Below, in pieces: positions 25,033 to 39,027 of a stretch of 64,000 nucleotides of DNA (the stretch's first letter is position 1; every line of letters begins with the position of its first letter). Origin of the DNA: Alphaproteobacteria bacterium. Its GTDB lineage: Bacteria > Pseudomonadota > Alphaproteobacteria > Bin95. A program made the translations under genes and the position numbers. Below the pieces are notes generated by a model. It was not told where the DNA came from and did not search any database. It saw only the letters and a list, made by a program, of their open reading frames with translations. The DNA lies in the NCBI GenBank assembly GCA_963665325.3, contig OZ224045.1, forward strand, positions 1,888,001-1,952,000. Reading direction: 5' to 3'.

Positions 25033-27417
25033 ATGATTCGTCTGTTGCGCTTCTTCTTCTGGCTTGCCGCCGTGGGCACGGTGCTGGGCGGCATCGCCGG
25101 CCTGTTCGTGGTGGACCATTTTGCCCGCGGCCTCCCGGCCTATGGCTGGCTTGCGACCTATGAACCGCCGGTTGCCACCCGCGTCCATGCCGGCGACGGT
25201 CGGCTTCTGGCCGAGTTTGCGGTCGAGCATCGTCTGTTCGTTCCGGTCGAGGCGATCCCGAAGCGGGTCGTCGATGCGTTCCTGTCTGCGGAAGACAAGA
25301 CCTTCTACGACCATGCCGGCCTCGATCCGGCCGGTCTGTTTCGCGCCGTCTATACGAATATTCGCAGCAAGCTGTCCGAGTCGGCACGGCGGCCGGTGGG
25401 CGGATCGACGATCACGCAGCAGGTCGCCAAGAATTTCCTGCTGAGCGCGGAAGTCTCCGTCGAGCGGAAGATCAAGGAGGCGATCCTGGCCTTCCGGCTC
25501 GAAAAGGCGCTGCCCAAGGATGCCATCCTCGAGCTCTACCTGAACCAGATTTACCTGGGATACGGCTCCTACGGCGTTGCGGCCGCGGCGCTCAACTATT
25601 TCAACAGCTCGCTCGACGATCTCACGATTGCCGAAGCGGCCTTCCTTGCCGCCCTGCCCAAGGCGCCCAACAACTACCACCCCGTCCGGCGCCGCCCGCA
25701 GGCGCTTGCGCGCCGCAACTGGGTGGTCGGGCGGATGCTGGACGACGGACGCATATCGCCGGTCGAGGCGGAGGAGGCGATCCGGGCTTCGCTCGAGACC
25801 CGGTCCCGCAAGGCGACGGAGTTCTTCGAGGCCGAATGGTTTGCCGAGGAAGTCCGTAGGGAGCTGATGGAGGTCTTCGGACAGGAGAAGCTCTATTCGG
25901 GCGGATTGTCCGTCCGGACGACCATAGACCCGAAACTGCAGCGTATCGGGGAGCATGCCTTGCGTTCTGGTCTTCAGGGCTATGATCGCCGCCACGGCTG
26001 GCGCGGTCCTCTCGCGCGCCTCGACCGGGACGATCTTGCAGCTGCGCTGGCGTCGGCGTCCGAGCCGCCGGGGCTCAGCCCCTATCGCCTCGCGGCGGTT
26101 ACCGGCGTTTCGGCGGACGCCGCCGCCATTCTCCTGAAGGACGGCAGCGCCGGTCGCATCCCGCTGGCGGAGGCCGAATGGGCGAGGCGGTCGCTTCCAA
26201 AGCAGAGGGTCGGCGCGGCGCCGAAGCGCATGCACGGGATTTTGAAGGCGGGCGACCTGGTTGCGATCGAACCGGCCAATGGGGGACCCGACGGCATGTG
26301 GGCGCTGCGCCAGATCCCGGATATCGAAGGCGCGCTGATCGCGATGGACCCGCATACCGGGCATGTGCTCGCAATGGTCGGCGGCTACGACGCCGAGCGC
26401 AGCGAGTTCAACCGCGCGACCCAGGCGATGCGCCAGCCCGGATCGGCCTTCAAGCCGTTCGTTTACCTGGCGGCCCTCCAGGAGGGCTACACGCCGGCCA
26501 CGCTGCTCGCCGACATGCCGATCGTCATCGACCAGGGCGGCGATCTCGGCCTCTGGCGGCCGCAGAACTACGCCGGTTCCTTCCACGGGATCGTGCCGAT
26601 GCGAATCGGCATCGAGAAGTCCCGCAACCTGATGACGGTGCGCCTGGCGCAAGCCGTCGGCATGAACCGGGTCGCCGCTGTCGCTGGCCGGTTCGGCATA
26701 CAGGAGGAGATGCCGGAGGTGCTGTCGATGTCGCTCGGGGCGGGCGAGACGACGCTCGCCCGGATGACGGCCGCCTACGCCATGCTCGCAAATGGCGGCC
26801 GTCGCATCTCGCCGACGATCGTCGACCGCGTGCAGGACCGGCACGGGCGCACGGTCTTCCGCCATGAGCAGCGGACATGCGCGGGCTGCGACACGCTCGA
26901 GGAGCTCGGTCCGAAGGTGCCTTACCCGCCGGATCCGCGCGAGCGGATCGCCGACCCCCAGAGCGTCTACCAGGTAGTGTCCATGTTGGAGGGCGTCGTG
27001 CTGCGGGGAACCGGGCGCCGGCTGCGGGCGGTCGGCAAGCCGCTTGCCGGAAAGACGGGCACAACCAGCGACTATGTCGATGCGTGGTTCGTGGGCTTCG
27101 CCTCCGATCTCGTCGTGGGCGTGTATGTCGGTTTCGACCGGCCGCGCACGCTCGGCCATGCGGAGACGGGCTCGTCGGTGGCGGCGCCGGTCTTCGGTGC
27201 CTTCATGCGCGAGGCGCTCGACCGGACGCCGGCGGCGCCGTTCCGGATTCCGCCGGGCATGTCGTTCCTGCGCGTCGGCCGCACCAGCGGCAAACCGGCG
27301 GAACCCGGCGAGGCCGACATCATCCTCGAGGCCTTTAGGCCGGGGACCGAGCCGCGCCCCGAAGGGCCCGGCCGCCTGCCGGCGGGCAGCGGCGAGCGAA
27401 TTTCCGGTATATACTGA
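25033..27417 (+). CDS. mrcA: Penicillin-binding protein 1A
   Basis: AEDKTF, GGSTITQQVAKN, RKIKE, LYLNQIY, SAFK, SRN, KTGT. Confidence 0.95.
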   Translation: MIRLLRFFFWLAAVGTVLGGIAGLFVVDHFARGLPAYGWLATYEPPVATRVHAGDGRLLAEFAVEHRLFVPVEAIPKRVVDAFLSAEDKTFYDHAGLDPAGLFRAVYTNIRSKLSESARRPVGGSTITQQVAKNFLLSAEVSVERKIKEAILAFRLEKALPKDAILELYLNQIYLGYGSYGVAAAALNYFNSSLDDLTIAEAAFLAALPKAPNNYHPVRRRPQALARRNWVVGRMLDDGRISPVEAEEAIRASLETRSRKATEFFEAEWFAEEVRRELMEVFGQEKLYSGGLSVRTTIDPKLQRIGEHALRSGLQGYDRRHGWRGPLARLDRDDLAAALASASEPPGLSPYRLAAVTGVSADAAAILLKDGSAGRIPLAEAEWARRSLPKQRVGAAPKRMHGILKAGDLVAIEPANGGPDGMWALRQIPDIEGALIAMDPHTGHVLAMVGGYDAERSEFNRATQAMRQPGSAFKPFVYLAALQEGYTPATLLADMPIVIDQGGDLGLWRPQNYAGSFHGIVPMRIGIEKSRNLMTVRLAQAVGMNRVAAVAGRFGIQEEMPEVLSMSLGAGETTLARMTAAYAMLANGGRRISPTIVDRVQDRHGRTVFRHEQRTCAGCDTLEELGPKVPYPPDPRERIADPQSVYQVVSMLEGVVLRGTGRRLRAVGKPLAGKTGTTSDYVDAWFVGFASDLVVGVYVGFDRPRTLGHAETGSSVAAPVFGAFMREALDRTPAAPFRIPPGMSFLRVGRTSGKPAEPGEADIILEAFRPGTEPRPEGPGRLPAGSGERISGIY

Positions 27418-27447: not shown

Positions 27448-28570
27448 ATGCGTGCAGAAGCGCAGGCCCTGGTGGATGACATCCGCGACAGCCTTACCCT
27501 GATCCGGAGGCATCTTTGACTGGGATGCATCGCTCGCGCGGCTGGAGGCGCTGAACGCCGAGGCCGAAGCCCCCGAACTCTGGAACGATCCGGCCCGCGC
27601 GCAGGAGGTGATGCGTGAGCGGACGCGGCTGGCCGACGGGCTGGAGGGCTTCCGCGCGCTTGAGACTGCGCTGGACGACGCGGTCACGCTCTATGAGCTA
27701 GGCGAGGCGGAAGAGGACGAGGGCGCGCTTGAGGAAGCCGAAGCCGAGCTTGAATCGATCCGGGAGCGGGCCGCCCGCCGCCGGCTGGAGAGCCTGCTTG
27801 CCGGCGAGGCCGACGGCAACGACTGCTACCTGGAGGTCAATGCCGGCGCGGGCGGCACCGAGGCGCAGGACTGGGCGCAGATGCTGCTGCGCATGTATGT
27901 TCGCTGGGCCGACGCCGGCGGCTACAAACTGGAATGGATCGAGGAAAGCCCCGGCGAGGAAGCGGGCATCAAGTCCGCATCCGTGCGGGTGAAGGGCGAC
28001 AACGCCTATGGCTGGCTGAAGACGGAGAGCGGTGTCCACCGCCTGGTGCGCATCTCGCCCTTCGACAGCCAGTCGCGCCGCCACACCAGCTTCGCCTCGG
28101 CCTGGGTCTATCCGGTGGTGGACGACCGGATCGAGGTCGAGATCGACGAGAGCGAGCTCCGCGTCGATGTCTATCGGGCATCGGGCGCCGGCGGGCAGCA
28201 TGTCAACAAGACGGAGAGCGCCGTCCGGATCACGCATATGCCGACCGGCATCGTGGTCCAGTGCCAGAACGACCGCTCGCAGCACCGCAACCGGGCAACG
28301 GCCATGGGGATGCTGAAGGCGCGGCTCTACGAGCACGAACTCCAGCGCCGGGAGGCCGAAGCGGCGGCGGAGCAGGCGGCGAAGGCGGATATCGGCTGGG
28401 GCAACCAGATCCGCTCCTACGTCCTCCAGCCCTACCAGATGGTGAAGGACCTGCGCACCGGCGTGGAGAAGGGCAACGCCCAGGGCGTGCTCGACGGCAA
28501 TATCGACGACTTCCTGAGCGCGGCGCTGGCCGCGAGAGTGGGCGCAGACCGGTCGGCGGAAAAGGGTTGA
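27448..28570 (+). CDS. prfB: Peptide chain release factor 2 (programmed +1 frameshift)
   Basis: ATG 27448 reads [23 protein letters not shown] to CTT-TGA-C; the +1 frame carries [11 protein letters not shown] and GGQ. Confidence 0.97.
27506..27520 (+). promoter_or_regulatory. prfB +1 frameshift cassette
   Basis: Internal SD-like GGAGG (27506-27510), then CAT CTT TGA C. Confidence 0.93.
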
Positions 28571-29481
28571 TACCTCTCGACGACAAGAGGTTCCGCCCTC
28601 TGGAGGGCGCGCCGGACTGGAGCGAAGAGGTCTTCGATAGGTGCGCGGAACTCACGGAGCTTCTGGAGGCGCATTCATATCGCTTCGCCCGGACGATGCC
28701 CGGTGCGCCGCATTCCTACACGCTCAAGCGGACCTGGGAGAGCGAAGACCTGTTCGTCGAGGCGCTCCGGAAAATGCGGGCCGTGGAGCGCGTCGAGGAG
28801 TTGTTCGGGGGCCGGTGGTACCGCCGTTTCACCGCCAACGGCTACAAATACTGGACCATGGGGGCCGGGCTCGACCACATCCTCATCAACCGGGCCATCC
28901 ACGATGCCGGTTTCGACCCATATGCGGTCGTCGCCGACGCCTACGACCTCGGCATCCACAGAAGCAGGTCCGAAGTCGAGCGCACGCAACGGATTTACGA
29001 TTCGGTCGGGATCGATCCCGGCGCCGACATTCTCGACATCGGTTGCGGTACCGGGACTCTTGTCGATTTCCGCTTCAAGGACATAGCACCGGAGCGCTAT
29101 ACTGGTATCGATCCAAGTCGAGGGATGCTGGGCGTCTTCGCGGACAAGCACCCCGAATTCCGGGATCGCCTGATCCGAACCCGGTTTGAGGATTACTGGC
29201 CGAAGCCGGGGCGGAAATTCGATCTGGTCGCGGCGCTGTTCGGTGCGCCTTCCTATCTCGCGGACCCCGATTCCGTTTCCCGGAAAATAGGCTGGCTTCT
29301 CAAACCCGGCGGCGCAGCTGTGCTCATGTATTACAACGGGAAGCCCCAGGATACGGAAATATACCGGCGCCTTGGTATGCAGCCTCCCGCCGCATACGGC
29401 GAGCGCGTAAGCGGCGAATTTTGGACTGTTCGGGAGGAAATCAGTGCCGGCTGGCTTACACTTGTTGGCAGCAGGACTTGA
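28567..29481 (+). CDS. Class I SAM-dependent methyltransferase with an uncharacterised N-terminal domain
   Basis: TTG start overlaps the prfB stop; [22 protein letters not shown]; N-terminal [12 protein letters not shown]...YWTMG...INRA. Confidence 0.8.
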
Positions 29482-29486
29482 CTGCG

Positions 29487-30503
29487 CTAACTATCCGGAA
29501 TCGTGTCTTGTAAAGCGTCGGAGATTCGCTTTATTTGCGCGGCGGCGTCTTCTATGACCCGCTCCTGTTCGACGCCGGCCTTCAGCCGAATGGGAATGCA
29601 CGGTCTTTCATTGGGAACTTTCACGTCCGTGAAGCTTCCACAAATCATTTCGAAAGCGTCGACGGTGCCATGCTGGGGCACCAACCACAACGGCGAGATT
29701 CCATGATCGCGCCATATCTTGAAGACAATCGCTAGAGATAGTTCAAACTTGTCGTGCGTACGGAAATACCGGCGGATATAATCGAAAGTAGCAGTAGGCA
29801 TATAGCCTTTTGTATCAGCTATTCCGTCGTCCACGAGCTTGTTTACGATCCCATTTATCAATCCGATGTAGTTCATTAATCGGCGCACTATCTCCTGATC
29901 GGTGACTTCATCTTCGCGCAGCGGCAGGAATGCCTCGGAGTCAGTCCAGTTCGTCAGCGCCTGTAACTGGAGGAGGTCGGCCCTAACCTCGTCATGCCCC
30001 TTGGAACGGGCAGCGTCCAGTAATGTCTCCAGGACATATTTCCAACTGGCGACCAGCATAGTCTTACCGCCGACACGGGCGCGATTGCCGGCCGCATCCT
30101 TCCATTCGAGTCCCGCGTCACTGCATCGCGCCCTGAGTTCGTGCCAGACCGTCGAAATTCTCTGCTCGGGAACGATGAACACAAGGGCTGACGGAGGGTC
30201 TTCTACGAGGTGGCCGAGATAAGACACGGGTTGCGCGTCGGTCAGCCCGGCCCAGAATTTGTTCTCGACGAAGACCCGCACACAACCGTTGCTGTCATGG
30301 ATCGTAAGGTCCGGTTGGCCCTCTCCATGTTCCAACTCGGCCTCGATGCGCCCGGGCTCGAACTCGATATCTGCGTCTCGCAGCATTTCGACGAACGCCT
30401 TGGCGATGTCCGGTTTCGATTTCAGTATGTAGGCCAGAGCCTGCGTCGCGGCGGGCTCGTTCTGTAGCGCCCCTCCAAGAACGACATGCGCCAACACGCT
30501 CAT
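29487..30503 (-). CDS. PD-(D/E)XK nuclease family protein
   Basis: QPDL...FVENKFWAGLTDAQPVSY (PD..ExK, Q..Y); visibly lower GC than its neighbours. Confidence 0.75.
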   Translation of the reverse strand: MSVLAHVVLGGALQNEPAATQALAYILKSKPDIAKAFVEMLRDADIEFEPGRIEAELEHGEGQPDLTIHDSNGCVRVFVENKFWAGLTDAQPVSYLGHLVEDPPSALVFIVPEQRISTVWHELRARCSDAGLEWKDAAGNRARVGGKTMLVASWKYVLETLLDAARSKGHDEVRADLLQLQALTNWTDSEAFLPLREDEVTDQEIVRRLMNYIGLINGIVNKLVDDGIADTKGYMPTATFDYIRRYFRTHDKFELSLAIVFKIWRDHGISPLWLVPQHGTVDAFEMICGSFTDVKVPNERPCIPIRLKAGVEQERVIEDAAAQIKRISDALQDTIPDS

Positions 30504-31024
30504 AGAGCTTACCCCCCGTTCTGTCGGTCCAGAGGCTTTCCGCCGGATGGCGGGCGGCTCGACCGGACCGGGCCGTGCCGGAGCCGCATCGGACGGCATT
30601 TCGGGCCGGACTGCAACCCTGCCCTGGTGAAGATGGTATTTTGTTCCAGGAATTATGAAATAATTCTCCATAAAGGCTAGACGTCAGGGCAACCAGCCAC
30701 TATATAGGACTACACGGAGCGGCATCCGGAGGCCGCCCCGTCCTCCGCGTCGGCGCCGGCGCGAAAAAATGCCCCTGAGAAACGCATGGGAGAGGTGCGT
30801 CCTGCGTCTCGCGCGCGCAATCAGGCGCGCGAGCCGCGCCGCCGCGAAGCGCGCGCGGGCGGGCACAGGCGCGGCTCGCGCAGGATACGCGCGAATCAGG
30901 GTCCCGCCGCACCGGGAAGCCGGGCGGAGGGACGAACGGAACGGAGTGGAACGAATCGCGATGGAGGAACGATCATGCAGCATACCCCTCTCCGTCACCC
31001 CGGCCGGAGGTCCGCATGCCTCTT

Positions 31025-31126
31025 GCGTCACCCCGGACGGCGCGCCAGCGCCGAGCCGGGGTCTCCGGACGAAGGGTTGCCCTTGTTGCACGAAGCCCCG
31101 GCTTCCCCGCTCGGGGGCGGGGACGG
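31025..31126. repeat. REP-like palindromic element
   Basis: cgtcaccccggacgg...gagccggggtct followed by gaagccccggc...ggggacg; partial copy cgtcaccccgg at ~30993. Confidence 0.45.
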
Positions 31127-31234
31127 GCGCGGTCCTGGGCGACGCAAAGGGAACGCGCACCTGCATCCTGAGCAGTTACAATAGGATATGAGCCATCCGC
31201 ATGCGGATCATGACATCTCTCGAGTAACTAACGC

Positions 31235-32611
31235 TCACGCCATGGCCCTATCACCATCGGGCGCTTGCATGTCCTGGGCGGGGTGGATCAGTTGGTAGCC
31301 GAGGGTTCGAGCCTTGCGCCGCAGGTTGGCGAGGGAACGGTCGATGCGCCGTTTTTCGTAGGCTTGCATGCCTTTTTCGACATATTGCTCACCCCGCGTC
31401 ACTATCAGATAGATCAGGCAAGCCAGTTCGCGGGCGGTCGCGGTTATCGCGACGGGAGTGTCCTTTCGGGCGAGCCGGGCGCGATGTTTGGCGCCGATGA
31501 AGGTCTGGCTCCTTCGTGCCGACATGGCTGCCATGCGCAGGGCCTGTCCGACCGGGTTGACCACCTTGTGCGTCCGGCCCGGCAAAGGCTTGCCGCCGCT
31601 GATCCTGGTGCCCGGCGCCACCCCCAGCCAGGAGCAGAAGTGTTGGGCGGAAGGGAAGGCGGAGAAGTCCGGGCCGATCTCGGAAGCGATCGTCAGAGCG
31701 GTTCCGGGACCGATGGTCGGGATCGCGGTCAGGTCGGTGCCCATCATGGCGGTCAGGGCCACGGTCAACGCCTTGTCGGTCATGGGGCCGACCGCGCGGA
31801 GTGTTTCGTGGGATGCGTCACCGCCGCCCGGCCCGTCCGGTGGCGTCAGATCGTCGATCTGCTCCGCGATCCGCGCCTCGCAGTCCTCGATCTGCCGGTC
31901 GAGGAAGTCATAGCGCTGCACGGCCTGCTCCAGGGCGAAGAGATGCTCCTCGCGCCAGGTGCCTTCCAGGCTCGCGGCGATTGTGTCCGCGCTGGCCTTG
32001 ATCCGCCGGTGCCGGAACGATGCCAGGCGCTGCGGGTCGCGTTCGCCGTCGACGATCGCCCGCAGGATCTTCATGCCGGTCTGCCCCGTGATGTCGGCGA
32101 TCGCCGAGTCCAGCCGGACATTCATCTCGGTCAGCGCCTTCTGCATGTGCTGCACGCAGCGCGAGCGGTCTTCAGTCAGGCGCTTCATCTGGCGCACATA
32201 GGAGCGAAGCGGGCAGACCGCATCGCCAGGACGGAAGGCGCCCCGCAGCAACCCGTAGGACAGAAGCTGCCAGATCCACTGGCAATCGAGCACGTCGCTC
32301 TTGCGACCGGCAATCTGCTTCGTCATCCGCGGGGGCACCAGGAGCACCTCGAAGCCGGCGCGTTCCAGCACCTCGTAGACCGGGATCCAGTAAACCGAGG
32401 TCGACTCCATCGCCACCTTCGTCACGCCGCACGACGAAAGCCAGTCCGCCATCGCCCGCAGATCGCAGGTGAAGCCGCCGAACGCCCGGACCGGGTCCGA
32501 AGTGCGCGCCGGATCGACGGCCACGAAGTGACGGTCCTTACCGATGTCGATCCCGGCGCAATCCGGGTTCACAACCCTCAACCGCTGCCTCTTCCCGGTC
32601 TTGCGCGCCAT
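31235..32611 (-). CDS. IS110 recombinase/transposase (458 aa)
   Basis: GIDIG, AMESTS, KSDVLD (DEDD tetrad); IPTIG; FCSWLGVAPG..ISGG. Confidence 0.95.
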   Translation of the reverse strand: MARKTGKRQRLRVVNPDCAGIDIGKDRHFVAVDPARTSDPVRAFGGFTCDLRAMADWLSSCGVTKVAMESTSVYWIPVYEVLERAGFEVLLVPPRMTKQIAGRKSDVLDCQWIWQLLSYGLLRGAFRPGDAVCPLRSYVRQMKRLTEDRSRCVQHMQKALTEMNVRLDSAIADITGQTGMKILRAIVDGERDPQRLASFRHRRIKASADTIAASLEGTWREEHLFALEQAVQRYDFLDRQIEDCEARIAEQIDDLTPPDGPGGGDASHETLRAVGPMTDKALTVALTAMMGTDLTAIPTIGPGTALTIASEIGPDFSAFPSAQHFCSWLGVAPGTRISGGKPLPGRTHKVVNPVGQALRMAAMSARRSQTFIGAKHRARLARKDTPVAITATARELACLIYLIVTRGEQYVEKGMQAYEKRRIDRSLANLRRKARTLGYQLIHPAQDMQAPDGDRAMA

Positions 32612-32642
32612 GCTGGTCCCCATTTTGTGTGCCGGTGCGGAC

Positions 32643-32787
32643 GGGGAAGAACCACGCAACAATGCCCAATCTCTCGAACGAGGTCGCGGCGAACCGCGCC
32701 ATCAGTGACAGAAGCCGATCGTGGTTCGGGCCAAGCTCATGAACGGGCGCTACATGCACACCAGTGATTCTCCGGCCTCCATTCCCC
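32643..32787 (-). ncRNA. Putative bridge RNA of the IS110 element
   Basis: Closing stems GGGGAA/TTCCCC and GAACCACG/CGTGGTTC; two loops TCAC-TG(G/A)...hairpin...GTT-guide; the guides match the element junctions. Confidence 0.7.
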
Positions 32788-33345: not shown

Positions 33346-35490
33346 CTAAGCCGCCGGTGCCACCCGGCAGGGGATGCCCTTGAAGTGGGGGATGCCTTGC
33401 TCGCGGTCGAGGAAATCCTCGTCGTCGGGGCAGAGTTGGGCGTCGGCCATTTCCCAGGCGCTCTCGAGCCCGACCTCCGGCAGCCACCAGCCATGCGGAA
33501 TCCGCACCAGGCCCCTCTGCATGTCGTCGCGGACGGCGGCCTTCATGTGCACGCGCCCCTGCGCCGTTTCGGCGACGGCGGGCTCGCCGTCCGCTATGCC
33601 GGCTTCGGCAGCATCGTCGGGGTGAAGGAAGAGCAGGGGCTCAGGCGCGCGGGCCCGCAGGGCTGCGATATGGCGGTGGCCGGTCTGGAAATAGGCGTCC
33701 TCGCGCAGGCCCGTGAACAGGCGGAGCGGCATGTTTTCGGGCGCCGCCGGCTCCTCGCGCCAGTAGGGCAGGGGGTCGAAGCCGAGCTCGGCCAGCACGG
33801 AGGACGAAAGCTCGACCTTGCCGGACGGCGTGGCGAAGCCCGTCTCTTCGTATTTCCGGAACTGGAGGCCGTCCGTATGCAGGGCGTGCTGCCGGGCGAA
33901 GCTGTCGAAATCCATGCCGAGGGCCGCCACGCGGTGATCCAGCACGGCGTCCGCCGTTTCCCACGGAAAATGGTTGCCGAGGCCGAACCGGACCGCCAGG
34001 CCGCGCCAGAAATCGTAAACGCTGCGCGCCTCCCCGGGCGGCTCCGTGGCCTGCTGCGAGGTGCGGCAAAGTGCGGTCCAGCCAAATCCGTCCGCCAGCG
34101 CCTTGCGCTCCGTCCAGGCATCGCCCGGCAGGATGTAATCGGAGAGCGCGGCCGTCGGCGTCTTCATGTGCTCGAAGGTGACGAGAAGGTCCTGGTTCAG
34201 GAGCGCCCTCTGGATCAGCTGCATGTTGGCGAAGCTGAGCAGCGTGTTGTTGCCGAGCGCGAAGAACGCCTTGACCGGATAGGGCTCGCCGTCCGCCATC
34301 GCCCGGAACACCGCCGACGGCGTGGCCATGTAGCAGCCGGAGACGATGTTGGCGTATCGCCGGCCCCATACGCGGAGCGTCGGCTCTTCCAGGGGTGCGG
34401 CGCCGCGATAGGTGAACACCGGATGGGTGTCGGACCCCAGCTGCTTGGCCTTCTGCGCTTCCGGCAGCGCGTCGTGAAGCTCCAGGTCCGTCTCCGGCAC
34501 GATGCGCGGGTGGAAGCCGTGCAGCACATCGCCGCCCGGAACGTCGAGATTGCCGCAGATGGCGCGCAGGATCGCCTGCAGCCGGATGGCGGAGGTCGAA
34601 TTGCGCTGCTGGTCGGTGATCGGCGACCACGGGATCACTGCGGGACCCGACTGCGCATAGAGGCGCGCGGCCTCGGCGATCTGGTCAGGCGCAACGCCGG
34701 TGATCTCCGCGACCCGGTCCAACGGAAACTCGTTGACGCGCGCACGGAGTTCGTCGAACCCCGCCGTCCACCGCTTGACGAAATCCCGGTCCCAGAGGCC
34801 TTCGTCCATGATGACCTTGAGCCATCCGAGGCACATGGCGGCGTCGGTGCCGACCTTGAGAGGCAGCCAGATGTCGGCGAGCTCGGCATTCTCCGACCGG
34901 CGCGGATCGAGCACGATCAGCTTCGCGCCGCGCTCCTGTGCGCGGCGGATGGCGTTGTATTCCGGCGTCCAGGAATGCGGCTTCGGATTGTGCCCGAACA
35001 GCACGATGCACTGCGTCTTGGTGAAGTCCGGATAGGGGAACCAGCCATAGACCAGTCGGTTGACGGCGGCCGTATTGCCGGCGCAGAGCGCCACGCCGGA
35101 AATCCAGTTGGGCGAGCCGACAAGGTTCATGAAGCGCCGGCACATGCCGTTGTCGGTCTGCGTGTTCCAGGAACTCGTCGAGACCGCGAACCCCTCCGGT
35201 CCATAGCGGTCGACAACCCGATGAAGGCGTTCGGCGATGTCGTCGAGCGCGCTGTCCCAATCGACCCGCTCCCATTCCCCGGAGCCGCGCGGCCCCTTGC
35301 GGCGGAGCGGATGCAGCACCCGGTCGGGATGAACGAAGCCGGAGGGCGCATGCACGCCCTTCATGCAGATATTGGCGCGTCCCGGCCTCGGGTCCATCGC
35401 CTTGACCCTGGTGACCTGCCCCCCTTCGGTCTCGACCGTAACCTGGCAGTAGATGTCGCAGGATGAGCAGAGCGCGCGCGCTTCGGGCAT
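33346..35490 (-). CDS. Bis-MGD Mo/W enzyme, acetylene hydratase-like
   Basis: CSSCDIYC..CMK 4Fe-4S motif, RRFMNLVGSPNW, LCAGNT, IPWSPITDQQRNS, ILPGDAWTER, GLRED, LDREQGIP. Confidence 0.88.
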   Translation of the reverse strand: MPEARALCSSCDIYCQVTVETEGGQVTRVKAMDPRPGRANICMKGVHAPSGFVHPDRVLHPLRRKGPRGSGEWERVDWDSALDDIAERLHRVVDRYGPEGFAVSTSSWNTQTDNGMCRRFMNLVGSPNWISGVALCAGNTAAVNRLVYGWFPYPDFTKTQCIVLFGHNPKPHSWTPEYNAIRRAQERGAKLIVLDPRRSENAELADIWLPLKVGTDAAMCLGWLKVIMDEGLWDRDFVKRWTAGFDELRARVNEFPLDRVAEITGVAPDQIAEAARLYAQSGPAVIPWSPITDQQRNSTSAIRLQAILRAICGNLDVPGGDVLHGFHPRIVPETDLELHDALPEAQKAKQLGSDTHPVFTYRGAAPLEEPTLRVWGRRYANIVSGCYMATPSAVFRAMADGEPYPVKAFFALGNNTLLSFANMQLIQRALLNQDLLVTFEHMKTPTAALSDYILPGDAWTERKALADGFGWTALCRTSQQATEPPGEARSVYDFWRGLAVRFGLGNHFPWETADAVLDHRVAALGMDFDSFARQHALHTDGLQFRKYEETGFATPSGKVELSSSVLAELGFDPLPYWREEPAAPENMPLRLFTGLREDAYFQTGHRHIAALRARAPEPLLFLHPDDAAEAGIADGEPAVAETAQGRVHMKAAVRDDMQRGLVRIPHGWWLPEVGLESAWEMADAQLCPDDEDFLDREQGIPHFKGIPCRVAPAA

Positions 35491-35602
35491 CGGCCGAACC
35501 TCCGGGCAGTCGGGATGGCGCCATCTTGACCCGGGAGCCCGAAAGCGGTCAATAACGGGACACAACCGCCGCCGGAGGGGCGTCGGAGAGAGGAGAACGC
35601 CC

Positions 35603-35914
35603 ATGTCCAGGGTCCACGTCATCGCCGTCATCCAGGCCAAGCCCGGCCGCCGGGCCGAGATTCTGGAGGCCTTCAACGCCAATGTGCCGGCGGTGCATGC
35701 AGAGGACGGGTGCATCGAATACGGCGCGGCCGTGGATGCCGAGGCGGGCGCGATCCAGACGAAATACGGCGAGGACACCTTCGTCGTCATCGAGAAATGG
35801 GCCAGCCTGGACGCGCTCCGCGCGCATGGCGCGTCGGCCCACATGGCCGCCTACGCGGCAAAGACGAAGGAGCTGATCGCCAGCCGGACGATCCACGTGC
35901 TGAACGACGCCTGA
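35603..35914 (+). CDS. ABM / putative quinol monooxygenase
   Basis: AGGAG RBS; EDGCIEY, IEKWASLDALRAH..SAHM. Confidence 0.88.
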   Translation: MSRVHVIAVIQAKPGRRAEILEAFNANVPAVHAEDGCIEYGAAVDAEAGAIQTKYGEDTFVVIEKWASLDALRAHGASAHMAAYAAKTKELIASRTIHVLNDA

Positions 35915-35918
35915 GCCT

Positions 35919-36725
35919 TCACCGGTCGAAGGAGAACGTCTCGATCTCCTTTCCGTCGATGCGCGCGATCGTTAGGCGGCCGTAGCCTGGCCGGTCGATA
36001 TGGACGCCGGTGTCGATCCCGAGGATGTTCCCGTGCCATGTCGGCTGCCGGCATGAGGTGTGGCCGGTGAGCACCGCGCGCACGCCTTCGACCGGGCCCA
36101 GATATTCACCGCCCGTCTCCCCGATCTCGCGCTGCACCCAGCCGTGATACACGCGGCTCCAGAGCGCGCGCGTGCGGGCGAGATGGCTGGCTGGCTCGTC
36201 GCCCTCCAGCGCGTTCTCGAGTTCCCGCCAGGACCGGTGCACGGGGCAGGCATGCACGAGCCCGACCGGTCCGTGCGGGGTCTCGACCCGGGCCGCGAAG
36301 GGAAGCGTTCGGAGGGCGGCCATCCAAACCTCGGCGCTGTCTTCCGCGTTTCGGAAGTGCCACCAGTTCCCGCCGTTCATCTGCCAGAGGGCCCAGGCGT
36401 CCGTGCCCGGGAGCCGCCCTGGAGGCAGTTCGCCCACCTCGTCCAGCGCCTCCAGCATCAGCTGTTCGTGGTTGCCGCGGAGCACCAGGTGGAAGCCCGG
36501 CCCCTCAATCCAGGCTTTCGCCTCGAAGGAACGCGGGCCGCGGTCGATCAGGTCGCCGAGCGAGAACAGGCGGTCGTCCGGGCCTACTTCCAATTCGTCC
36601 AGCGCGCGGCGCAGCGTGGCGAAATGGCCGTGCAGATCGCCCACGACCAGGTCGCGGCCCCCGGGATTCGGCCCAAGACGGACGCTGAGCGGCGTGCCCG
36701 GCGGGGCGAAGCTGTCGGTTCTCAC
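35919..36725 (-). CDS. PPP-family metallophosphoesterase (PphA / lambda-phosphatase-like)
   Basis: GDLHG, LGDLIDRG, RGNHE, VHAC, GHT, IDTG; GTG start with GAGG RBS. Confidence 0.88.
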   Translation of the reverse strand: MRTDSFAPPGTPLSVRLGPNPGGRDLVVGDLHGHFATLRRALDELEVGPDDRLFSLGDLIDRGPRSFEAKAWIEGPGFHLVLRGNHEQLMLEALDEVGELPPGRLPGTDAWALWQMNGGNWWHFRNAEDSAEVWMAALRTLPFAARVETPHGPVGLVHACPVHRSWRELENALEGDEPASHLARTRALWSRVYHGWVQREIGETGGEYLGPVEGVRAVLTGHTSCRQPTWHGNILGIDTGVHIDRPGYGRLTIARIDGKEIETFSFDR

Positions 36726-36899
36726 GGTGTCCGTTTCCTCGACGCGGGTGGCTGCCGCGCAGGATAGGCCGGCGGCCCGGAATTCTCGAACGGGAACGAC
36801 AAGGGCGGCATGGATGCGGCGGCCGGCCTGCGGGCCCGCCCGGTTGAAACAGGTTTCCGCATCCGGTCCCGAGGCGGGGCGCGGCGCAGGCGGCCGCCA

Positions 36900-37440
36900 T
36901 TGGCCGCGCTCGGCACGATGCTCGTCTTCGCCGTCATTCTGCTGCGCTCGCTCTGGGGTACGCTTGCCATCGTCATCATGCCGGTCGCCGTCCTCGCTTC
37001 CACGATAGGCTTTACCGGCTGGACCGGTATGAAGTTTTTCGGCGAGAGCGGCGCCGCGCTGTTCGTGCTGATGGCGGTCACCGTTGCGCATTCCGTGCAT
37101 GTATTCGAGGGCATGGCTACGGGCCTGCGCCGGGGCCTGGACCGCAAGGAAGCGGCGATTCAGTCGCTCCGGGTCAGTCTGTGGCCGGTTTTCCTCACAT
37201 CGCTCACGACGGCAATCGGATTCCCCAGCCTGAGTTTCGCGGATATGCCGCCCATCCGCTCGGTGGGCAAGGCGCTGCTGGCGACGACCGTCTTGTTCGG
37301 ACTGGGGTTCATGGTGTTCGGGGTGTCGGGTCTGGTGACCAACCAGGCGCTGGGGCTACCGGCCGGCATCACCGTCGTCATCGCCCTGCCGGCGGACTTC
37401 CTGTTCCTGCCGCCCCTGCTGATGGTCCTCGACGGGACCA
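36900..37440 (+). pseudogene. MMPL/RND transporter remnant (5'-truncated and internally deleted)
   Basis: First-half TM block (...PVFLTSLTTAIGF..DMPPIR) fused directly to the C-terminal block (SVGKALLATT...DFLFLPPLL); sits upstream of a LolA-like gene, as intact MMPL genes do. Confidence 0.7.
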
Positions 37441-37567
37441 GGGAGACGAGCGGACAGATCAGGGAACGGCTGCAGCGGGAAGCCGGCCAGCCGGGCGGAT
37501 TGTGCTATCCTGCGGGAAAAGGCTTCGGCGGGGGCGCACGCACCGCAGCCGCCGATAGGAGGAAACG

Positions 37568-38377
37568 GTGATTGGCGCATTTCTCTCCCGCCCGCTGCCT
37601 ATGCTGTTCGGGCTGTTGTTCGCGGTCTTCGCATGGCCCGCCGGCCTGGCGGCCGAAAGCGCCGAGGAAGCCGGGCTCAGGATCGCGACGGACGCCCGCG
37701 AACGGCAGAAGGGCTTCGGCAATTTCATTGCAGGCATGACCATGACGCTCCGCAACAAGCGGGGCCAGGAGAGCAAGCGCGAAGTCCGCCTGAAGGTCAT
37801 CGAGGTAGAGGGAGACGGCGACCGGACCGTGTTCGTGTTCGACCGGCCGCGCGATGTCAGGGGAACGGCGTTCCTCGTCCACGCCCACAGGGAGGAGGCC
37901 GACGAGCAGTGGCTCTATCTTCCCGCCCTGAAACGGGTCAAGCGCATCAGTTCCTCTAACCAGTCGGGCTCCTTCATGGGCAGCGAGTTCTCATACGAAG
38001 ACCTGGGCACTCCCGAGGTCGAGAAATTCACCCACCGGGTTCTGCGCAACGAGCCCTGCGGTGAACTCGAATGCATCGTCTCCGAACGTATTCCGGTCGG
38101 CCGCGACTCGGGATACTCGCGCCAGCTGGTCTGGCTGGACCGGGAGGAGTTGCGCATCATGCAGATCCAGTTCTTCGACCGCAGGGACGCGCATCTCAAG
38201 ACGATGGTCGTGGAAGGCTACAACAAATATCTGGACCGCTTCTGGCGGAGCAGCAAGATAACGATGACCAACCACCTCACGGGAAAAAGCACCTTGCTGG
38301 ACTGGTCCGACTACGAGTTCGGGGCCGACCTCGACCTCGGCGACTTCACCCGAACGGCACTGAAACGGGTGCGGTAG
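37568..38377 (+). CDS. Outer-membrane lipoprotein-sorting (LolA-like) protein
   Basis: PRDVRGTAFL, QWLYLPALKRVKRI, SFMGSEFSYED, MTNHLTGKST. Confidence 0.88.
   Translation: MIGAFLSRPLPMLFGLLFAVFAWPAGLAAESAEEAGLRIATDARERQKGFGNFIAGMTMTLRNKRGQESKREVRLKVIEVEGDGDRTVFVFDRPRDVRGTAFLVHAHREEADEQWLYLPALKRVKRISSSNQSGSFMGSEFSYEDLGTPEVEKFTHRVLRNEPCGELECIVSERIPVGRDSGYSRQLVWLDREELRIMQIQFFDRRDAHLKTMVVEGYNKYLDRFWRSSKITMTNHLTGKSTLLDWSDYEFGADLDLGDFTRTALKRVR

Positions 38378-38951: not shown

Positions 38952-39027
<76 letters not shown>

What the first reader, a model, noticed from the sequence alone, without database searches (positions are those of the whole stretch)
33346..35490. Acetylene hydratase homologue with catalytic Asp intact but Ile142 replaced by Ala
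Compared from memory with Pelobacter (Syntrophotalea) acetylenicus tungsten acetylene hydratase, the protein is colinear. CSSCDIYC vs CQSCDINC (catalytic Asp13 kept); CMK (Lys48); RRFMNLVGSPNW vs RRFMNLLGSPNW; LCAGNT vs MCIGNT (W-ligand Cys141 kept, pocket Ile142 to Ala); HSW, IPW and GDAW Trp residues; GLRED; LDREQGIP. There is no Tat signal and no electron-transfer subunit nearby, which fits a non-redox cytoplasmic hydratase. The characterised enzyme comes from a strict anaerobe. Inference: an enlarged pocket here may accept a bulkier alkyne, nitrile or other substrate, i.e. a new activity in an alphaproteobacterium.
Basis: partly seen in the sequence, partly recalled or inferred. Interest (0 to 1): 0.78.

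Follow-up and report, generated by a model that had tools for sequence, protein, structure and literature searches.

The report
Acetylene-hydratase-like enzyme of unknown substrate
This gene encodes a molybdenum enzyme that closely resembles acetylene hydratase but belongs to a large, untested group found in oxygen-breathing bacteria, whose differently shaped active-site pocket suggests it adds water to some small molecule other than acetylene.

Summary
Window 33346-35490 (minus strand) encodes a 714-aa cytoplasmic bis-MGD/[4Fe-4S] protein. It is 45% identical to Pelobacter acetylene hydratase (AH; PDB 2e7z: E 2e-204; model TM 0.95). The FeS cysteines, Asp13, Lys48 and Cys141 are kept, and Ile142 is Ala.

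The 'GDAW' Trp is AH Trp462, not Trp472.

The variant is not special to this genome. Trp113/Ala142 occurs in 208 of the 236 sampled relatives. The gene is present in 15 of 16 other genomes of the genus.

Trees give three Asp-bearing clades:
- A: Pelobacter AH plus Gordonibacter/Eggerthellaceae homologues.
- C: the AH-like proteins of Rhodococcus opacus DSM 44186 (plasmid-borne, flanked by IS elements) and Bradyrhizobium sp. I71. I recall both as aerobic acetylene users. This clade keeps Leu142 and Trp472.
- B: this gene.

So it is an AH-family member outside both acetylenotroph-linked clades. I read it as most likely a stand-alone non-redox hydratase with an unknown, non-acetylene substrate (about 0.45). 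True acetylene hydratase (0.2) and a redox enzyme (0.3) remain open.

The scan held no look-alike window. Its other AH-like findings concern different clades.

The parts
33346..35490 (-). Gene for the 714-aa acetylene-hydratase-like bis-MGD/[4Fe-4S] protein (P0003), stop codon included
   Evidence: ORF and translation. Pfam PF00384 and PF01568, weak PF04879. 2e7z E 2e-204. Model TM 0.95 to 2e7z.
35446..35469 (-). Codons for Cys8-x2-Cys11-Asp12-Ile13-x-Cys15. These are three FeS (FS0) ligands, the Asp equivalent to catalytic Asp13, and Ile equivalent to Ile14.
   Evidence: Alignment to 2e7z and P0284. Codon check. Cys and Asp invariant in alignment A1.
35359..35367 (-). Codons Cys42-Met43-Lys44. 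Cys42 is the fourth FeS ligand (= Cys46) and Lys44 equals Lys48.
35167..35169 (-). Trp108 codon, the position of AH pocket residue Ile113 (Ile to Trp)
   Evidence: Trp in 119 of 121 and in 225 of 236 sampled clade members.
35080..35085 (-). Cys136-Ala137 codons. Cys136 is the predicted Mo/W ligand (= Cys141). Ala137 takes the place of Ile142.
   Evidence: Cys in 121 of 121; Ala 110, Ser 9, Met 2 of 121.
34084..34086 (-). Phe469 codon, the position of AH pocket residue Trp472 (Trp to Phe)
   Evidence: Variable in the clade: F 138, W 46, Y 28, L 19 of 236.
35499..35503 (-). GGAGG Shine-Dalgarno-like sequence, separated from the ATG (ending at 35490) by 8 nt
   Evidence: Sequence read directly
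35526..35552 (.). Inverted repeat TTGACC-N15-GGTCAA in the 112-bp spacer between this gene and the divergent ABM gene. It is a candidate operator and/or promoter.
   Evidence: Only match in the window, 0 expected in 100 shuffles. Both arms are identical in all 9 genus sequences aligned. Its function is inferred.
35603..35914 (+). Divergent 103-aa ABM-domain (antibiotic biosynthesis monooxygenase-like) gene, the only neighbour conserved within the genus
   Evidence: Pfam PF03992 E 4.4e-17. Adjacent and divergent in 8 of 8 genus genomes examined. Not next to the homologue in any of 80 loci from other taxa.

Best explanation
The gene encodes a cytoplasmic, single-subunit molybdenum (less likely tungsten) bis-MGD enzyme with one N-terminal [4Fe-4S] cluster. 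It belongs to the Asp-bearing 'acetylene hydratase-like' superclade of the DMSO-reductase (MopB) family.

Within that superclade it sits in a very large, biochemically untested clade, here called clade B. This clade is typical of aerobic Proteobacteria, Actinobacteria and Myxococcota. It is distinct from clade A (Pelobacter AH plus Gordonibacter/Eggerthellaceae homologues). It is also distinct from clade C, which holds the AH-like proteins of Rhodococcus opacus DSM 44186 and Bradyrhizobium sp. I71.

Inferred mechanism, by analogy with AH:
- Cys136 binds the metal.
- A metal-bound water or hydroxide is activated by Asp12, which sits next to FeS ligand Cys11.
- The water is added across an unsaturated bond of a small hydrophobic substrate.
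- The substrate is held in a ring formed by Ile13, Trp108, Ala137, Trp174, Trp288 and Phe469.
- There is no net electron transfer, so no partner subunit is needed.

Three of the six ring residues differ from AH in a clade-wide, coupled way. The clades tied to acetylene users keep the AH ring. The physiological substrate is therefore probably not acetylene but another alkyne-like or otherwise unsaturated compound.

Shown: family, fold, residue conservation, clade placement and genomic context. Inferred: cofactor loading, non-redox chemistry and substrate class.
For: Homology and fold:
- 2e7z E 2e-204.
- 45% identity to near-identical AH P0284.
- Model TM 0.95 to 2e7z.

Catalytic set: FeS Cys x4, Asp, Lys and metal Cys are invariant in alignment A1 and in 118-121 of 121 close relatives.

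Phylogeny:
- The Asp-bearing superclade is monophyletic: FastTree 1.0 with 173 sequences, and IQ-TREE SH-aLRT 100 with 52 sequences.
- Clade B has support 0.999/99.
- AH groups with the Gordonibacter/Eggerthellaceae proteins at 1.0/100.
- The R. opacus plasmid protein groups with P0125/P0126 at 92.4 (clade C).
- Bradyrhizobium sp. I71 protein P0367 is 67% identical to P0125.

Pocket signatures:
- Clade C has Leu142 in 34 of 35 and Trp472 in 33 of 35.
- The query group has 113/142 = WA 208, WS 9, AM 8, WM 5, WL 3, AL 2, SM 1 of 236.
- All 11 sequences with a small residue at 113 have Met or Leu at 142.
- An Ile-to-Ala pocket mutant of Pelobacter AH shows marked loss of activity. AH converts no acetylene derivatives, nitriles or ethylene (review PMC6013536, section 10 read).

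Stand-alone gene:
- No FeS or flavin partner in this window.
- No conserved partner gene in 67 clade-B loci.
- 27 of the 67 have an adjacent HxlR, MarR or TetR regulator.

Cofactor supply in the genome: mobA 200 bits against a cut-off of 152, and modA 179 against 62.5. No WtpA tungstate-binding protein was found.

Conservation: the orthologue is present in 15 of 16 other genomes of the genus at 86-97% identity.
Against: - No member of clade B has been assayed, so 'hydratase' rests on analogy alone.
- Asp13, Lys48, Trp179 and Trp293 are also kept in the Gordonibacter/Eggerthellaceae homologues. Characterised relatives of these are reductive catechol dehydroxylases (PMC7028382, passages read). 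The catalytic set therefore does not discriminate hydratase from redox chemistry.
- Stand-alone MopB enzymes with only FS0 can still be redox enzymes fed by soluble donors (general knowledge, for example assimilatory nitrate reductases).
- Trp113 plus Ala142 roughly conserves the combined side-chain volume of Ile plus Ile. A small acetylene-sized pocket is therefore not excluded.
- I had no model coordinates, so the pocket geometry was not measured.
- That DSM 44186 and I71 grow on acetylene is recalled, not read in a held paper.
- The sequence samples are the top hits of three searches. They are related to one another, so the counts are not independent events. I see only about 2-3 independent 113/142 switches on the tree.
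Confidence: 0.45

Rival explanations
1. It is a genuine acetylene hydratase of an aerobic, molybdenum-dependent type. Trp108 fills the space freed by Ala137, the pocket stays acetylene-sized, and the product acetaldehyde is oxidised by housekeeping aldehyde dehydrogenases.
For: - 45% identity to AH and the best PDB match by far.
- All catalytic residues are kept.
- 113/142 size co-variation is consistent with a preserved small pocket.
- Clades A and C, both linked to acetylene users, bracket clade B on the tree. Acetylene hydration could therefore be ancestral.
- Aerobic acetylene hydratases are reported as Mo-dependent and immunologically distinct from the Pelobacter enzyme (mBio paper PMC7858054, passages read).
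Against: - The AH-like proteins of the two aerobic strains I recall as acetylene users are in clade C, not B. They keep Leu142 and Trp472.
- They lie in mobile contexts with IS elements and their own Moco genes. This gene does not.
- Clade B proteins occur in ordinary Bradyrhizobium, Paraburkholderia, Cupriavidus and many marine bacteria. Acetylene use is described as rare: 15 known strains (PMC7858054).
- The Ile-to-Ala pocket mutation lowers AH activity markedly.
- An aldehyde dehydrogenase is the immediate neighbour in only 2 of 67 loci, and one of these matches is weak (E 1.8e-11).
Confidence: 0.2
2. It is a redox enzyme acting on an aromatic, quinone-like or other oxidised compound. It could be a reductive dehydroxylase like the gut catechol dehydroxylases, or a hydroxylase or reductase. 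It would draw or deliver electrons through FS0 from a soluble donor that is not encoded next to it.
For: - Catechol dehydroxylases are the closest characterised relatives of AH (PMC7028382).
- Their Gordonibacter/Eggerthellaceae-type homologues nest with AH and keep the Asp.
- Neighbours in this and other genomes are of kinds often tied to aromatic, quinone or electrophile metabolism:
  - the ABM-domain gene, conserved in the genus;
  - HxlR, MarR or TetR regulators in 27 of 67 loci;
  - Rieske oxygenase alpha subunit in 2 loci, SnoaL-like in 2, CMD family in 2, nitroreductase in 1, GST in 1.
- FS0 and Lys44, the usual electron path, are intact.
Against: - No FeS, flavin or membrane-anchor partner gene is conserved.
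- The hosts are mostly aerobes. Reductive dehydroxylation is known from anaerobes.
- The gene is not inside the Gordonibacter/Eggerthellaceae subclade.
- AH itself keeps FS0 and Lys48 without redox turnover, so they are not diagnostic.
- The neighbour families are common and varied, so the association is weak.
Confidence: 0.3

Closest known systems
Tungsten acetylene hydratase of Pelobacter (Syntrophotalea) acetylenicus, PDB 2E7Z, EC 4.2.1.112
   Same: - Same fold (TM 0.95), 45% identity, colinear.
- Monomeric and cytoplasmic.
- Same FS0 cysteines, Asp13, Lys48 and Cys141.
- Same Ile14, Trp179, Trp293 and Phe611.
   Different: - Pocket residues Ile113 to Trp, Ile142 to Ala and Trp472 to Phe; also Ala137/Met138 to Gly/Val.
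- Different clade.
- Aerobic-type host with molybdate uptake genes and no WtpA, so probably Mo rather than W.
- Widespread and vertically kept within a genus, not rare.
AH-like proteins of aerobic acetylene users (clade C): Rhodococcus opacus DSM 44186 plasmid pRop44186_a protein WP_120661552.1, and Bradyrhizobium sp. I71 protein (P0367)
   Same: - Same Asp-bearing superclade, about 42% identity to the query.
- Aerobic hosts, one of them an alphaproteobacterium.
- Cytoplasmic and stand-alone.
   Different: - Clade C keeps Ile14, Leu142 and Trp472.
- It carries a 3-residue deletion near position 113.
- It sits among IS elements, integrases and dedicated Moco genes such as MoeZ, MoaA and MoaE.
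- The window's gene has none of these traits.
- Neither protein has been assayed. The acetylene phenotype of the strains is recalled from Rosner et al. 1997 and Akob et al. 2022, which I could not read here.
Catechol dehydroxylases of Eggerthella/Gordonibacter (Dadh, Cldh, Dodh, Hcdh; eLife 2020, PMC7028382)
   Same: - Same superclade. They are described as the closest characterised relatives of AH.
- Homologues from these taxa keep Asp13, Lys48, Cys141, Trp179 and Trp293.
   Different: - They are redox (reductive) enzymes of strict anaerobes.
- Their homologues cluster with AH in clade A, not with the query.
- Pocket positions 14/113/142 are Gly/Leu/Met in most.
- I did not verify that loci L077 and L080-L082 are the characterised enzymes themselves.
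Metallopterin-dependent ergothioneine synthase MES (Caldithrix abyssi; PMC9516567)
   Same: The N-terminal module is related to acetylene hydratase, and its chemistry is not an oxygen-atom transfer.
   Different: - Only 27% identical to AH, against 45% for the query.
- It is fused to a C-terminal cysteine desulfurase. That domain is absent here (714 aa, Pfam).
- It occurs in anaerobes only.

Membership tests
Acetylene hydratase sensu stricto (EC 4.2.1.112) | DMSO-reductase-family four-domain fold with the AH-type arrangement | tested here: met
   Foldseek places 2e7z first: TM 0.95/0.94, rmsd 2.0 A over 733 columns. The next entries reach TM 0.83 or less.
Acetylene hydratase sensu stricto (EC 4.2.1.112) | N-terminal [4Fe-4S] ligands Cys9/12/16/46, metal ligand Cys141, catalytic Asp13, Lys48 | tested here: met
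   Cys8/11/15/42, Cys136, Asp12 and Lys44 are aligned without gaps. They are invariant in A1.
Acetylene hydratase sensu stricto (EC 4.2.1.112) | Hydrophobic substrate ring Ile14, Ile113, Ile142, Trp179, Trp293, Trp472. The list is recalled from Seiffert et al. 2007. All but Ile14 are named as residues of the 6-8 A active-site models in PMC7970554. | tested here: not met
   3 of 6 are kept (Ile13, Trp174, Trp288). The other three changed: Ile113 to Trp108, Ile142 to Ala137, Trp472 to Phe469.
Acetylene hydratase sensu stricto (EC 4.2.1.112) | Clusters with enzymes of acetylene-using organisms | tested here: not met
   The query is in clade B (0.999/99). Pelobacter AH is in clade A. The R. opacus DSM 44186 and Bradyrhizobium I71 proteins are in clade C.
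Acetylene hydratase sensu stricto (EC 4.2.1.112) | Hydrates acetylene to acetaldehyde; W (or Mo) bis-MGD bound | not testable with these tools
   This needs enzyme assay and metal analysis. The genome has mobA and modA and no WtpA.
Asp-bearing AH / catechol-dehydroxylase superclade of the bis-MGD (MopB) family | Pfam Molybdopterin plus Molydop_binding domains, Cys metal ligand, Asp directly after the second FS0 Cys, and monophyly against other MopB proteins | tested here: met
   Pfam. By my motif scan, Asp follows the second Cys in only 11 of the 150 best 50%-cluster representatives. Superclade support is 1.0 and 100.
Catechol dehydroxylases (Dadh/Cldh type) | Clusters with Eggerthella/Gordonibacter enzymes | tested here: not met
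   Gordonibacter (L077) and Eggerthellaceae-type proteins (P0127) group with AH at 100, away from the query.
Catechol dehydroxylases (Dadh/Cldh type) | Electron-transfer partner (FeS subunit, membrane anchor) encoded alongside | tested here: inconclusive
   There is none beside the query and none conserved in 67 clade-B loci. My crude ORF calls also found no FeS partner in the Eggerthellaceae loci, so the contrast is not established.
Metallopterin-dependent ergothioneine synthase (MES) | C-terminal PLP cysteine desulfurase fused to the metallopterin module | tested here: not met
   The protein is 714 aa with only PF00384, PF01568 and weak PF04879. MES is 27% identical to AH.

The most novel reading that the evidence does not exclude
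Clade B enzymes, including this one, are molybdenum-dependent hydratases for terminal alkynes larger than acetylene. Candidate substrates are the acetylenic lipids and polyynes made by sponges, plants, fungi and bacteria.

In this reading, the shift of bulk from positions 142 and 472 to position 113 opens a side exit for the alkyl chain, while the C-C triple-bond end still reaches the Mo-bound water and Asp12.

This would make non-redox molybdenum hydratases a widespread detoxifying or catabolic enzyme class in aerobic bacteria, each switched on by its own HxlR, MarR or TetR sensor.

Weak hints:
- Acyl-CoA ligase, enoyl-CoA hydratase, acyl-CoA dehydrogenase or fatty-acid-desaturase genes lie near some homologues.
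- Contigs matching the gene occur in RNA libraries labelled sponge metagenome.
Probability: 0.15. Interest if true: 0.8.

Novelty: new variant of a known kind. Interest (0 to 1): 0.52.

Why it matters
Acetylene hydratase is so far the only characterised non-redox enzyme of the Mo/W bis-MGD family. It is treated as a rarity of strict anaerobes.

This gene stands for hundreds of sequences from aerobic soil and marine bacteria. They keep the whole catalytic apparatus but carry a different, internally coupled pocket. They are separate from the enzymes found in the known acetylene users.

If they are hydratases for other substrates, water addition to unactivated triple bonds (or related chemistry) would be a common bacterial capability. 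It would also offer oxygen-tolerant biocatalysts. If instead they are redox enzymes, they extend the catechol-dehydroxylase type of chemistry into aerobes.

Either way, the three-clade picture gives a practical rule for genome annotation. Acetylenotroph-linked clades keep Ile/Leu142 and Trp472, whereas clade B has Trp113 with Ala142. 'Acetylene hydratase' hits in aerobes should not be read as evidence of acetylene use unless they are of the clade A or C type.

Tried and rejected
Papers I could not read:
- Five were not held: Akob 2018, Seiffert 2007, tenBrink 2011 (tried by DOI and by PMC id) and Liao 2010. Their content is cited only through a review, a DFT paper, or from recall.
- Searches for 'I142A', for 'acetylenotrophic' plus 'I71', and for 'DSM 44186' found nothing.
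- The last paper search was badly framed and useless.
- No searchable paper discusses Ile142 variation in homologues. The only hit was a DFT study.

Conserved operon: clustering of neighbours in 80 loci found none. The ABM gene is a neighbour only within this genus.

Genomic island at tRNA-Phe: rejected. The gene and the ABM gene sit between the RF2-like gene and the acyl-CoA ligase in 8 of 8 genus genomes. Only the IS110, methyltransferase, 394-aa ORF, phosphoesterase, MMPL fragment and LolA-like gene are variable inserts.

MES relationship: too distant, and the fusion is absent.

Partner-subunit contrast with the Eggerthellaceae loci: not established.

Plasmid search: only one hit at E 1e-100 or better, but it was useful (R. 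opacus).

I replaced it with -fast plus SH-aLRT.

RNA evidence:
- Short contigs from four RNA libraries match parts of the gene and of the ABM gene at 90-99%.
- X1 and X2 gave identical contigs, so they may be one data set.
- Contigs from RNA libraries do not prove transcription, so I draw no conclusion on expression.

Earlier findings: a search by sequence gave none.

Pocket volume: not measurable, because model coordinates are not exposed. My rough sum from recalled residue volumes is +61, -78 and -38 A3, a net of about 55 A3 more room. That is arithmetic, not geometry.

NCBIfam: no equivalog reaches its cut-off.
Full report
WHAT IS THERE. The minus-strand ORF 33346..35844 contains the gene. 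It is preceded by GGAGG at 35499-35503, and orthologues in related genomes match from residue 1. The 714-aa product (P0003) carries Pfam Molybdopterin (PF00384, E 4.9e-35), Molydop_binding (PF01568, E 1.3e-16) and a weak Fe4S4 domain. No NCBIfam equivalog reaches its cut-off. Against all PDB sequences the best match is acetylene hydratase 2e7z_A: E 2e-204, 684 bits, query 6-705 on chain 4-718. The next is polysulfide/thiosulfate reductase at 3.9e-64. P0284, found later, is about 99% identical to 2e7z (1708 bits). BLASTP of the query against it gives 45% identity over 715 columns. An AlphaFold2 model built on a 20-sequence alignment (pLDDT 87.8, pTM 0.91) matches 2e7z at TM 0.95/0.94 and rmsd 2.0 A. 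All other entries reach TM 0.83 or less.

RESIDUES. The PDB chain numbering is the published numbering minus 3; P0284 carries the full numbering. On that basis:
- Cys8/11/15/42 = Cys9/12/16/46
- Asp12 = Asp13
- Ile13 = Ile14
- Lys44 = Lys48
- Cys136 = Cys141
- Ala137 = Ile142
- Trp174 = Trp179
- Trp288 = Trp293
- Phe601 = Phe611

Two corrections apply. The 'GDAW' Trp (Trp459) aligns with AH Trp462; pocket residue Trp472 aligns with Phe469. So three of the six ring residues differ. I recall the ring list (Ile14, Ile113, Ile142, Trp179, Trp293, Trp472) from Seiffert et al. 2007. A DFT paper that I read in passages names all but Ile14 as residues of its 6-8 A active-site models (PMC7970554). There is no Tat motif: the first cluster Cys is residue 8.

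HOW COMMON IS THE VARIANT. The 5.8-billion-protein search returned 2035 hits among the candidates scored. The best 120 are 63-95% identical. Where named, they come from Paraburkholderia, Cupriavidus, Bradyrhizobium, Variovorax, Hydrogenophaga, Mameliella, Sulfitobacter, Albimonas, Hyphomicrobiaceae and Myxococcota. Among the query plus these 120:
- Asp12 is present in 118; the other 3 are N-terminally truncated.
- Trp108 is present in 119.
- Position 137 is Ala in 110, Ser in 9 and Met in 2.

A scan of one genome per species returned 571 confirmed relatives, of which 80 loci were kept. The 'WNT ... CAGNT' signature runs through the loci that are 55% or more identical. These include Zavarzinia, Parvibaculaceae, Sphingomonadaceae, many marine Gammaproteobacteria, Mycobacterium persicum and a Variovorax megaplasmid.

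In a pooled set of 390 sequences, 236 Asp-bearing ones are closest to the query at 50% identity or more. Their 113/142 pairs are WA 208, WS 9, AM 8, WM 5, WL 3, AL 2 and SM 1. All 11 sequences with a small residue at 113 have Met or Leu at 142. Of 225 with Trp113, 217 have Ala or Ser at 142. On the tree the A/S-113 plus M-142 forms nest inside W/A lineages. So the two positions switch together, though I see only about 2-3 independent events. Position 472 is loose: F 138, W 46, Y 28, L 19.

IN THIS GENOME AND GENUS.
- The window lies on contig C1 of a 5.58-Mb, 5-contig genome.
- The orthologue is found in 15 of 16 other genomes of the genus at 86-97% identity.
- It is found in 0 of 8 genomes of two sister genera and in 0 of 16 other families of the class, among those searched.
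- In 8 of 8 genus genomes examined, the gene lies between an RF2-like gene and an acyl-CoA ligase / luciferase-like / FAH / CoA-transferase block. It is always divergent from a 103-aa ABM-domain gene.
- In two genomes it follows the RF2-like gene directly.
- The IS110 transposase, methyltransferase, 394-aa ORF, phosphoesterase, MMPL fragment and LolA-like gene of this window are variable inserts. The gene is therefore not part of a recent island.
- The spacer between this gene and the ABM gene holds an inverted repeat, TTGACC-N15-GGTCAA, at 35526-35552. Its arms are identical in all 9 sequences aligned.
- The genome has mobA and modA. No WtpA was found. TupA was not tested.
- A second, 54-56% identical paralogue lies on contig C4.
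- The class label 'alphaproteobacterium' is consistent with the data. The paralogue is 93.9% identical to a protein in a record titled 'MAG: Alphaproteobacteria bacterium'.

PHYLOGENY. I pooled the hits, the loci proteins and the first 37 of the 150 50%-cluster representatives as outgroup, and removed sequences 78% or more identical to one already kept. That left 173 of 321. I built a FastTree LG+gamma tree. I then built an IQ-TREE -fast LG+G4 tree with SH-aLRT on 52 chosen sequences, including the R. opacus protein. The results (FastTree / IQ-TREE):
- The proteins with Asp after the second cluster Cys form one clade: 1.0 / 100.
- Clade C branches first: P0126, P0125 and R. opacus (92.4).
- A and B come together: 0.993 / 98.2.
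- Clade B (query, paralogue type and all W/A sequences): 0.999 / 99.
- Clade A as a whole is weak: 0.80 / 52.6.
- The subclade holding Pelobacter AH (P0284), a Clostridiaceae/Bathyarchaeota type (951 bits to 2e7z) and the Gordonibacter/Eggerthellaceae proteins is solid: 1.0 / 100.

The query is therefore inside the AH-like superclade. It is outside the group that holds AH itself.

THE ACETYLENE USERS. A tblastn search of 72,556 plasmids gave one hit at E 1e-100 or better. It is a 786-aa 'molybdopterin-dependent oxidoreductase' on plasmid pRop44186_a of Rhodococcus opacus DSM 44186 (soil, Tuebingen). It is 42% identical to the query and to AH. It lies between IS630 and IS5 transposases, with a ferritin-like gene, ferredoxin FdxA, MoeZ and three integrases nearby. 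I recall DSM 44186 as strain MoAcy1, the aerobic acetylene degrader of Rosner et al. 1997. No held paper confirms this.

A search with its clade-mate P0125 listed a protein named by NCBI as from Bradyrhizobium sp. I71, 67% identical to P0125. I recall I71 as the aerobic, acetylene-using isolate of Akob et al. 2022, whose putative AH was said to be flanked by transfer elements. That paper is not held.

Clade C keeps Asp13, Ile14 (30 of 35), Lys48, Cys141, Leu142 (34 of 35), Trp179, Trp293, Trp472 (33 of 35) and Phe611. Two other clade C loci carry MoaA, a ThiF-rhodanese (MoeZ-like) gene, MoaE and an ISL3 transposase next to the gene.

So two distant clades tied to acetylene users share the AH pocket, with a conservative Ile-to-Leu change. 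Ordinary Bradyrhizobium species carry clade B genes. No clade A or C gene was found in the window's genome or in the 16 other genus genomes at E 1e-100 or better.

WHAT THE LITERATURE ADDS.
- A review (PMC6013536, section 10 read) reports from tenBrink et al. 2011 that Asp13Ala nearly inactivates AH, that Asp13Glu does not, and that an Ile-to-Ala pocket variant loses much activity. [quoted passage not shown]
- The mBio paper (PMC7858054, passages) states that only the Pelobacter enzyme is characterised. It adds that aerobic enzymes are Mo-dependent and immunologically distinct, and that 15 acetylenotroph strains were known.
- The eLife paper (PMC7028382, passages) states that gut catechol dehydroxylases are most closely related to AH, and that a large uncharacterised group surrounds them. 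I came to it through earlier scan notes. In my alignments the Gordonibacter/Eggerthellaceae homologues keep Asp13, Lys48, Trp179 and Trp293. These residues therefore do not by themselves prove hydratase chemistry.
- MES (PMC9516567) is only 27% identical to AH and is a fusion protein. It is not a close relative.

CONTEXT ACROSS TAXA. My own crude ORF calls on the 80 loci gave no conserved operon. Of 67 clade-B loci, 27 have an HxlR (7), MarR (8) or TetR (13) regulator as immediate neighbour; one locus has two. Other immediate neighbours are varied:
- DUF7009: 4 loci
- enoyl-CoA hydratase: 3
- PhyH: 2 (paralogue type)
- Rieske oxygenase alpha: 2
- CIA30: 2
- metallo-beta-lactamase fold: 2
- CMD family: 2
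- SnoaL-like: 2
- aldehyde dehydrogenase: 2 (one weak)

Within the 8-kb flanks, acyl-CoA ligase-like genes occur in 8 of 80 loci and enoyl-CoA hydratase-like genes in 11 of 80. These families are common, so I give them little weight. The picture is of a stand-alone gene with its own small-molecule-sensing repressor.

READING. Placement in the family, the fold, the intact catalytic set and the cytoplasmic single-subunit nature are shown. The rest is inference. I commit to a non-redox hydratase acting through a Mo-bound water and Asp12 on a small hydrophobic unsaturated substrate other than acetylene (0.45). My reasons:
- The apparatus is intact and under strong conservation.
- No electron partner is conserved.
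- The pocket differs in a coupled, clade-wide way.
- The enzymes of the acetylene users keep the AH pocket.

A true acetylene hydratase (0.2) is not excluded, because Trp113 plus Ala142 roughly keeps the volume of Ile plus Ile. A redox enzyme of the dehydroxylase kind (0.3) is not excluded either, because such enzymes share the same conserved residues.

NOVELTY AND SCORE. The gene is an ordinary member of its clade. Nothing is unique to this window, and an AH-like gene in an aerobic alphaproteobacterium is already on record. The clade itself is uncharacterised. In the searchable library I found no description of its Trp113/Ala142 signature or of its separation from the acetylenotroph-linked clades. 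I could not read Akob et al. 2018 or 2022 or their supplements, which may bear on this. I rate it a new variant of a known kind, with interest 0.52.

Noticed in passing
Own genome contig C4:280328-282454 (+), locus L002:1438-3825: A second AH-like paralogue, 54-56% identical to the query. It keeps Asp, Lys and Cys but has Gly14, Ala113, Ala142 and Ile472, so it is the one with a truly opened pocket. It also has a C-terminal extension of about 80 aa. It lies between a PhyH-type dioxygenase gene and an enoyl-CoA hydratase gene. It is present in most of the genus genomes searched (13 of the 16 others). PhyH is also the neighbour in loci L058 and L066.
   Followed up: partly
window 35526-35552: Inverted repeat TTGACC-N15-GGTCAA between the AH-like gene and the divergent ABM gene. 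Its arms are identical in 9 of 9 genus sequences. It is the only match in the window, with none in 100 shuffles. It is a candidate operator; no regulator gene lies beside it in this genus.
   Followed up: partly
window 28642-32662 and 35919-38377: Variable cargo inserted on both sides of the conserved AH-like/ABM pair. It comprises a methyltransferase, a 394-aa ORF without a Pfam match, an IS110 transposase (31235-32662), a metallophosphoesterase, a truncated MMPL/RND fragment (36810-37571) and a LolA-like gene. These are absent or different in the other genus genomes.
   Followed up: partly
L106 (R. opacus plasmid NZ_CP082159.1, 628111-648306); L076; L078: Clade C AH-like genes travel with IS elements or integrases and their own molybdenum-cofactor genes (MoeZ/ThiF-rhodanese, MoaA, MoaE), plus a ferritin-like gene and ferredoxin in R. 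opacus. This looks like a mobile 'acetylene hydratase plus cofactor' module.
   Followed up: partly
window 25464-25555 (-): ARAGORN calls a 92-nt tRNA-Ala(ggc) inside the long ORF that reads by eye as a class A penicillin-binding protein (25033-27417, +). This is probably a false call. tRNA-Phe at 38952-39027 looks genuine.
   Followed up: no
window 27608-28570 (+): RF2-like ORF; a GGQ motif is seen by eye in the translation. It starts at a GTG and seems to lack its N-terminal part, as expected if the usual programmed frameshift of prfB applies. Not checked.
   Followed up: no
window 33346-35914: Short contigs from four RNA-library runs, two of them labelled sponge metagenome, match parts of the AH-like and ABM genes at 90-99% identity. 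X1 and X2 gave identical contigs. This does not prove transcription.
   Followed up: partly
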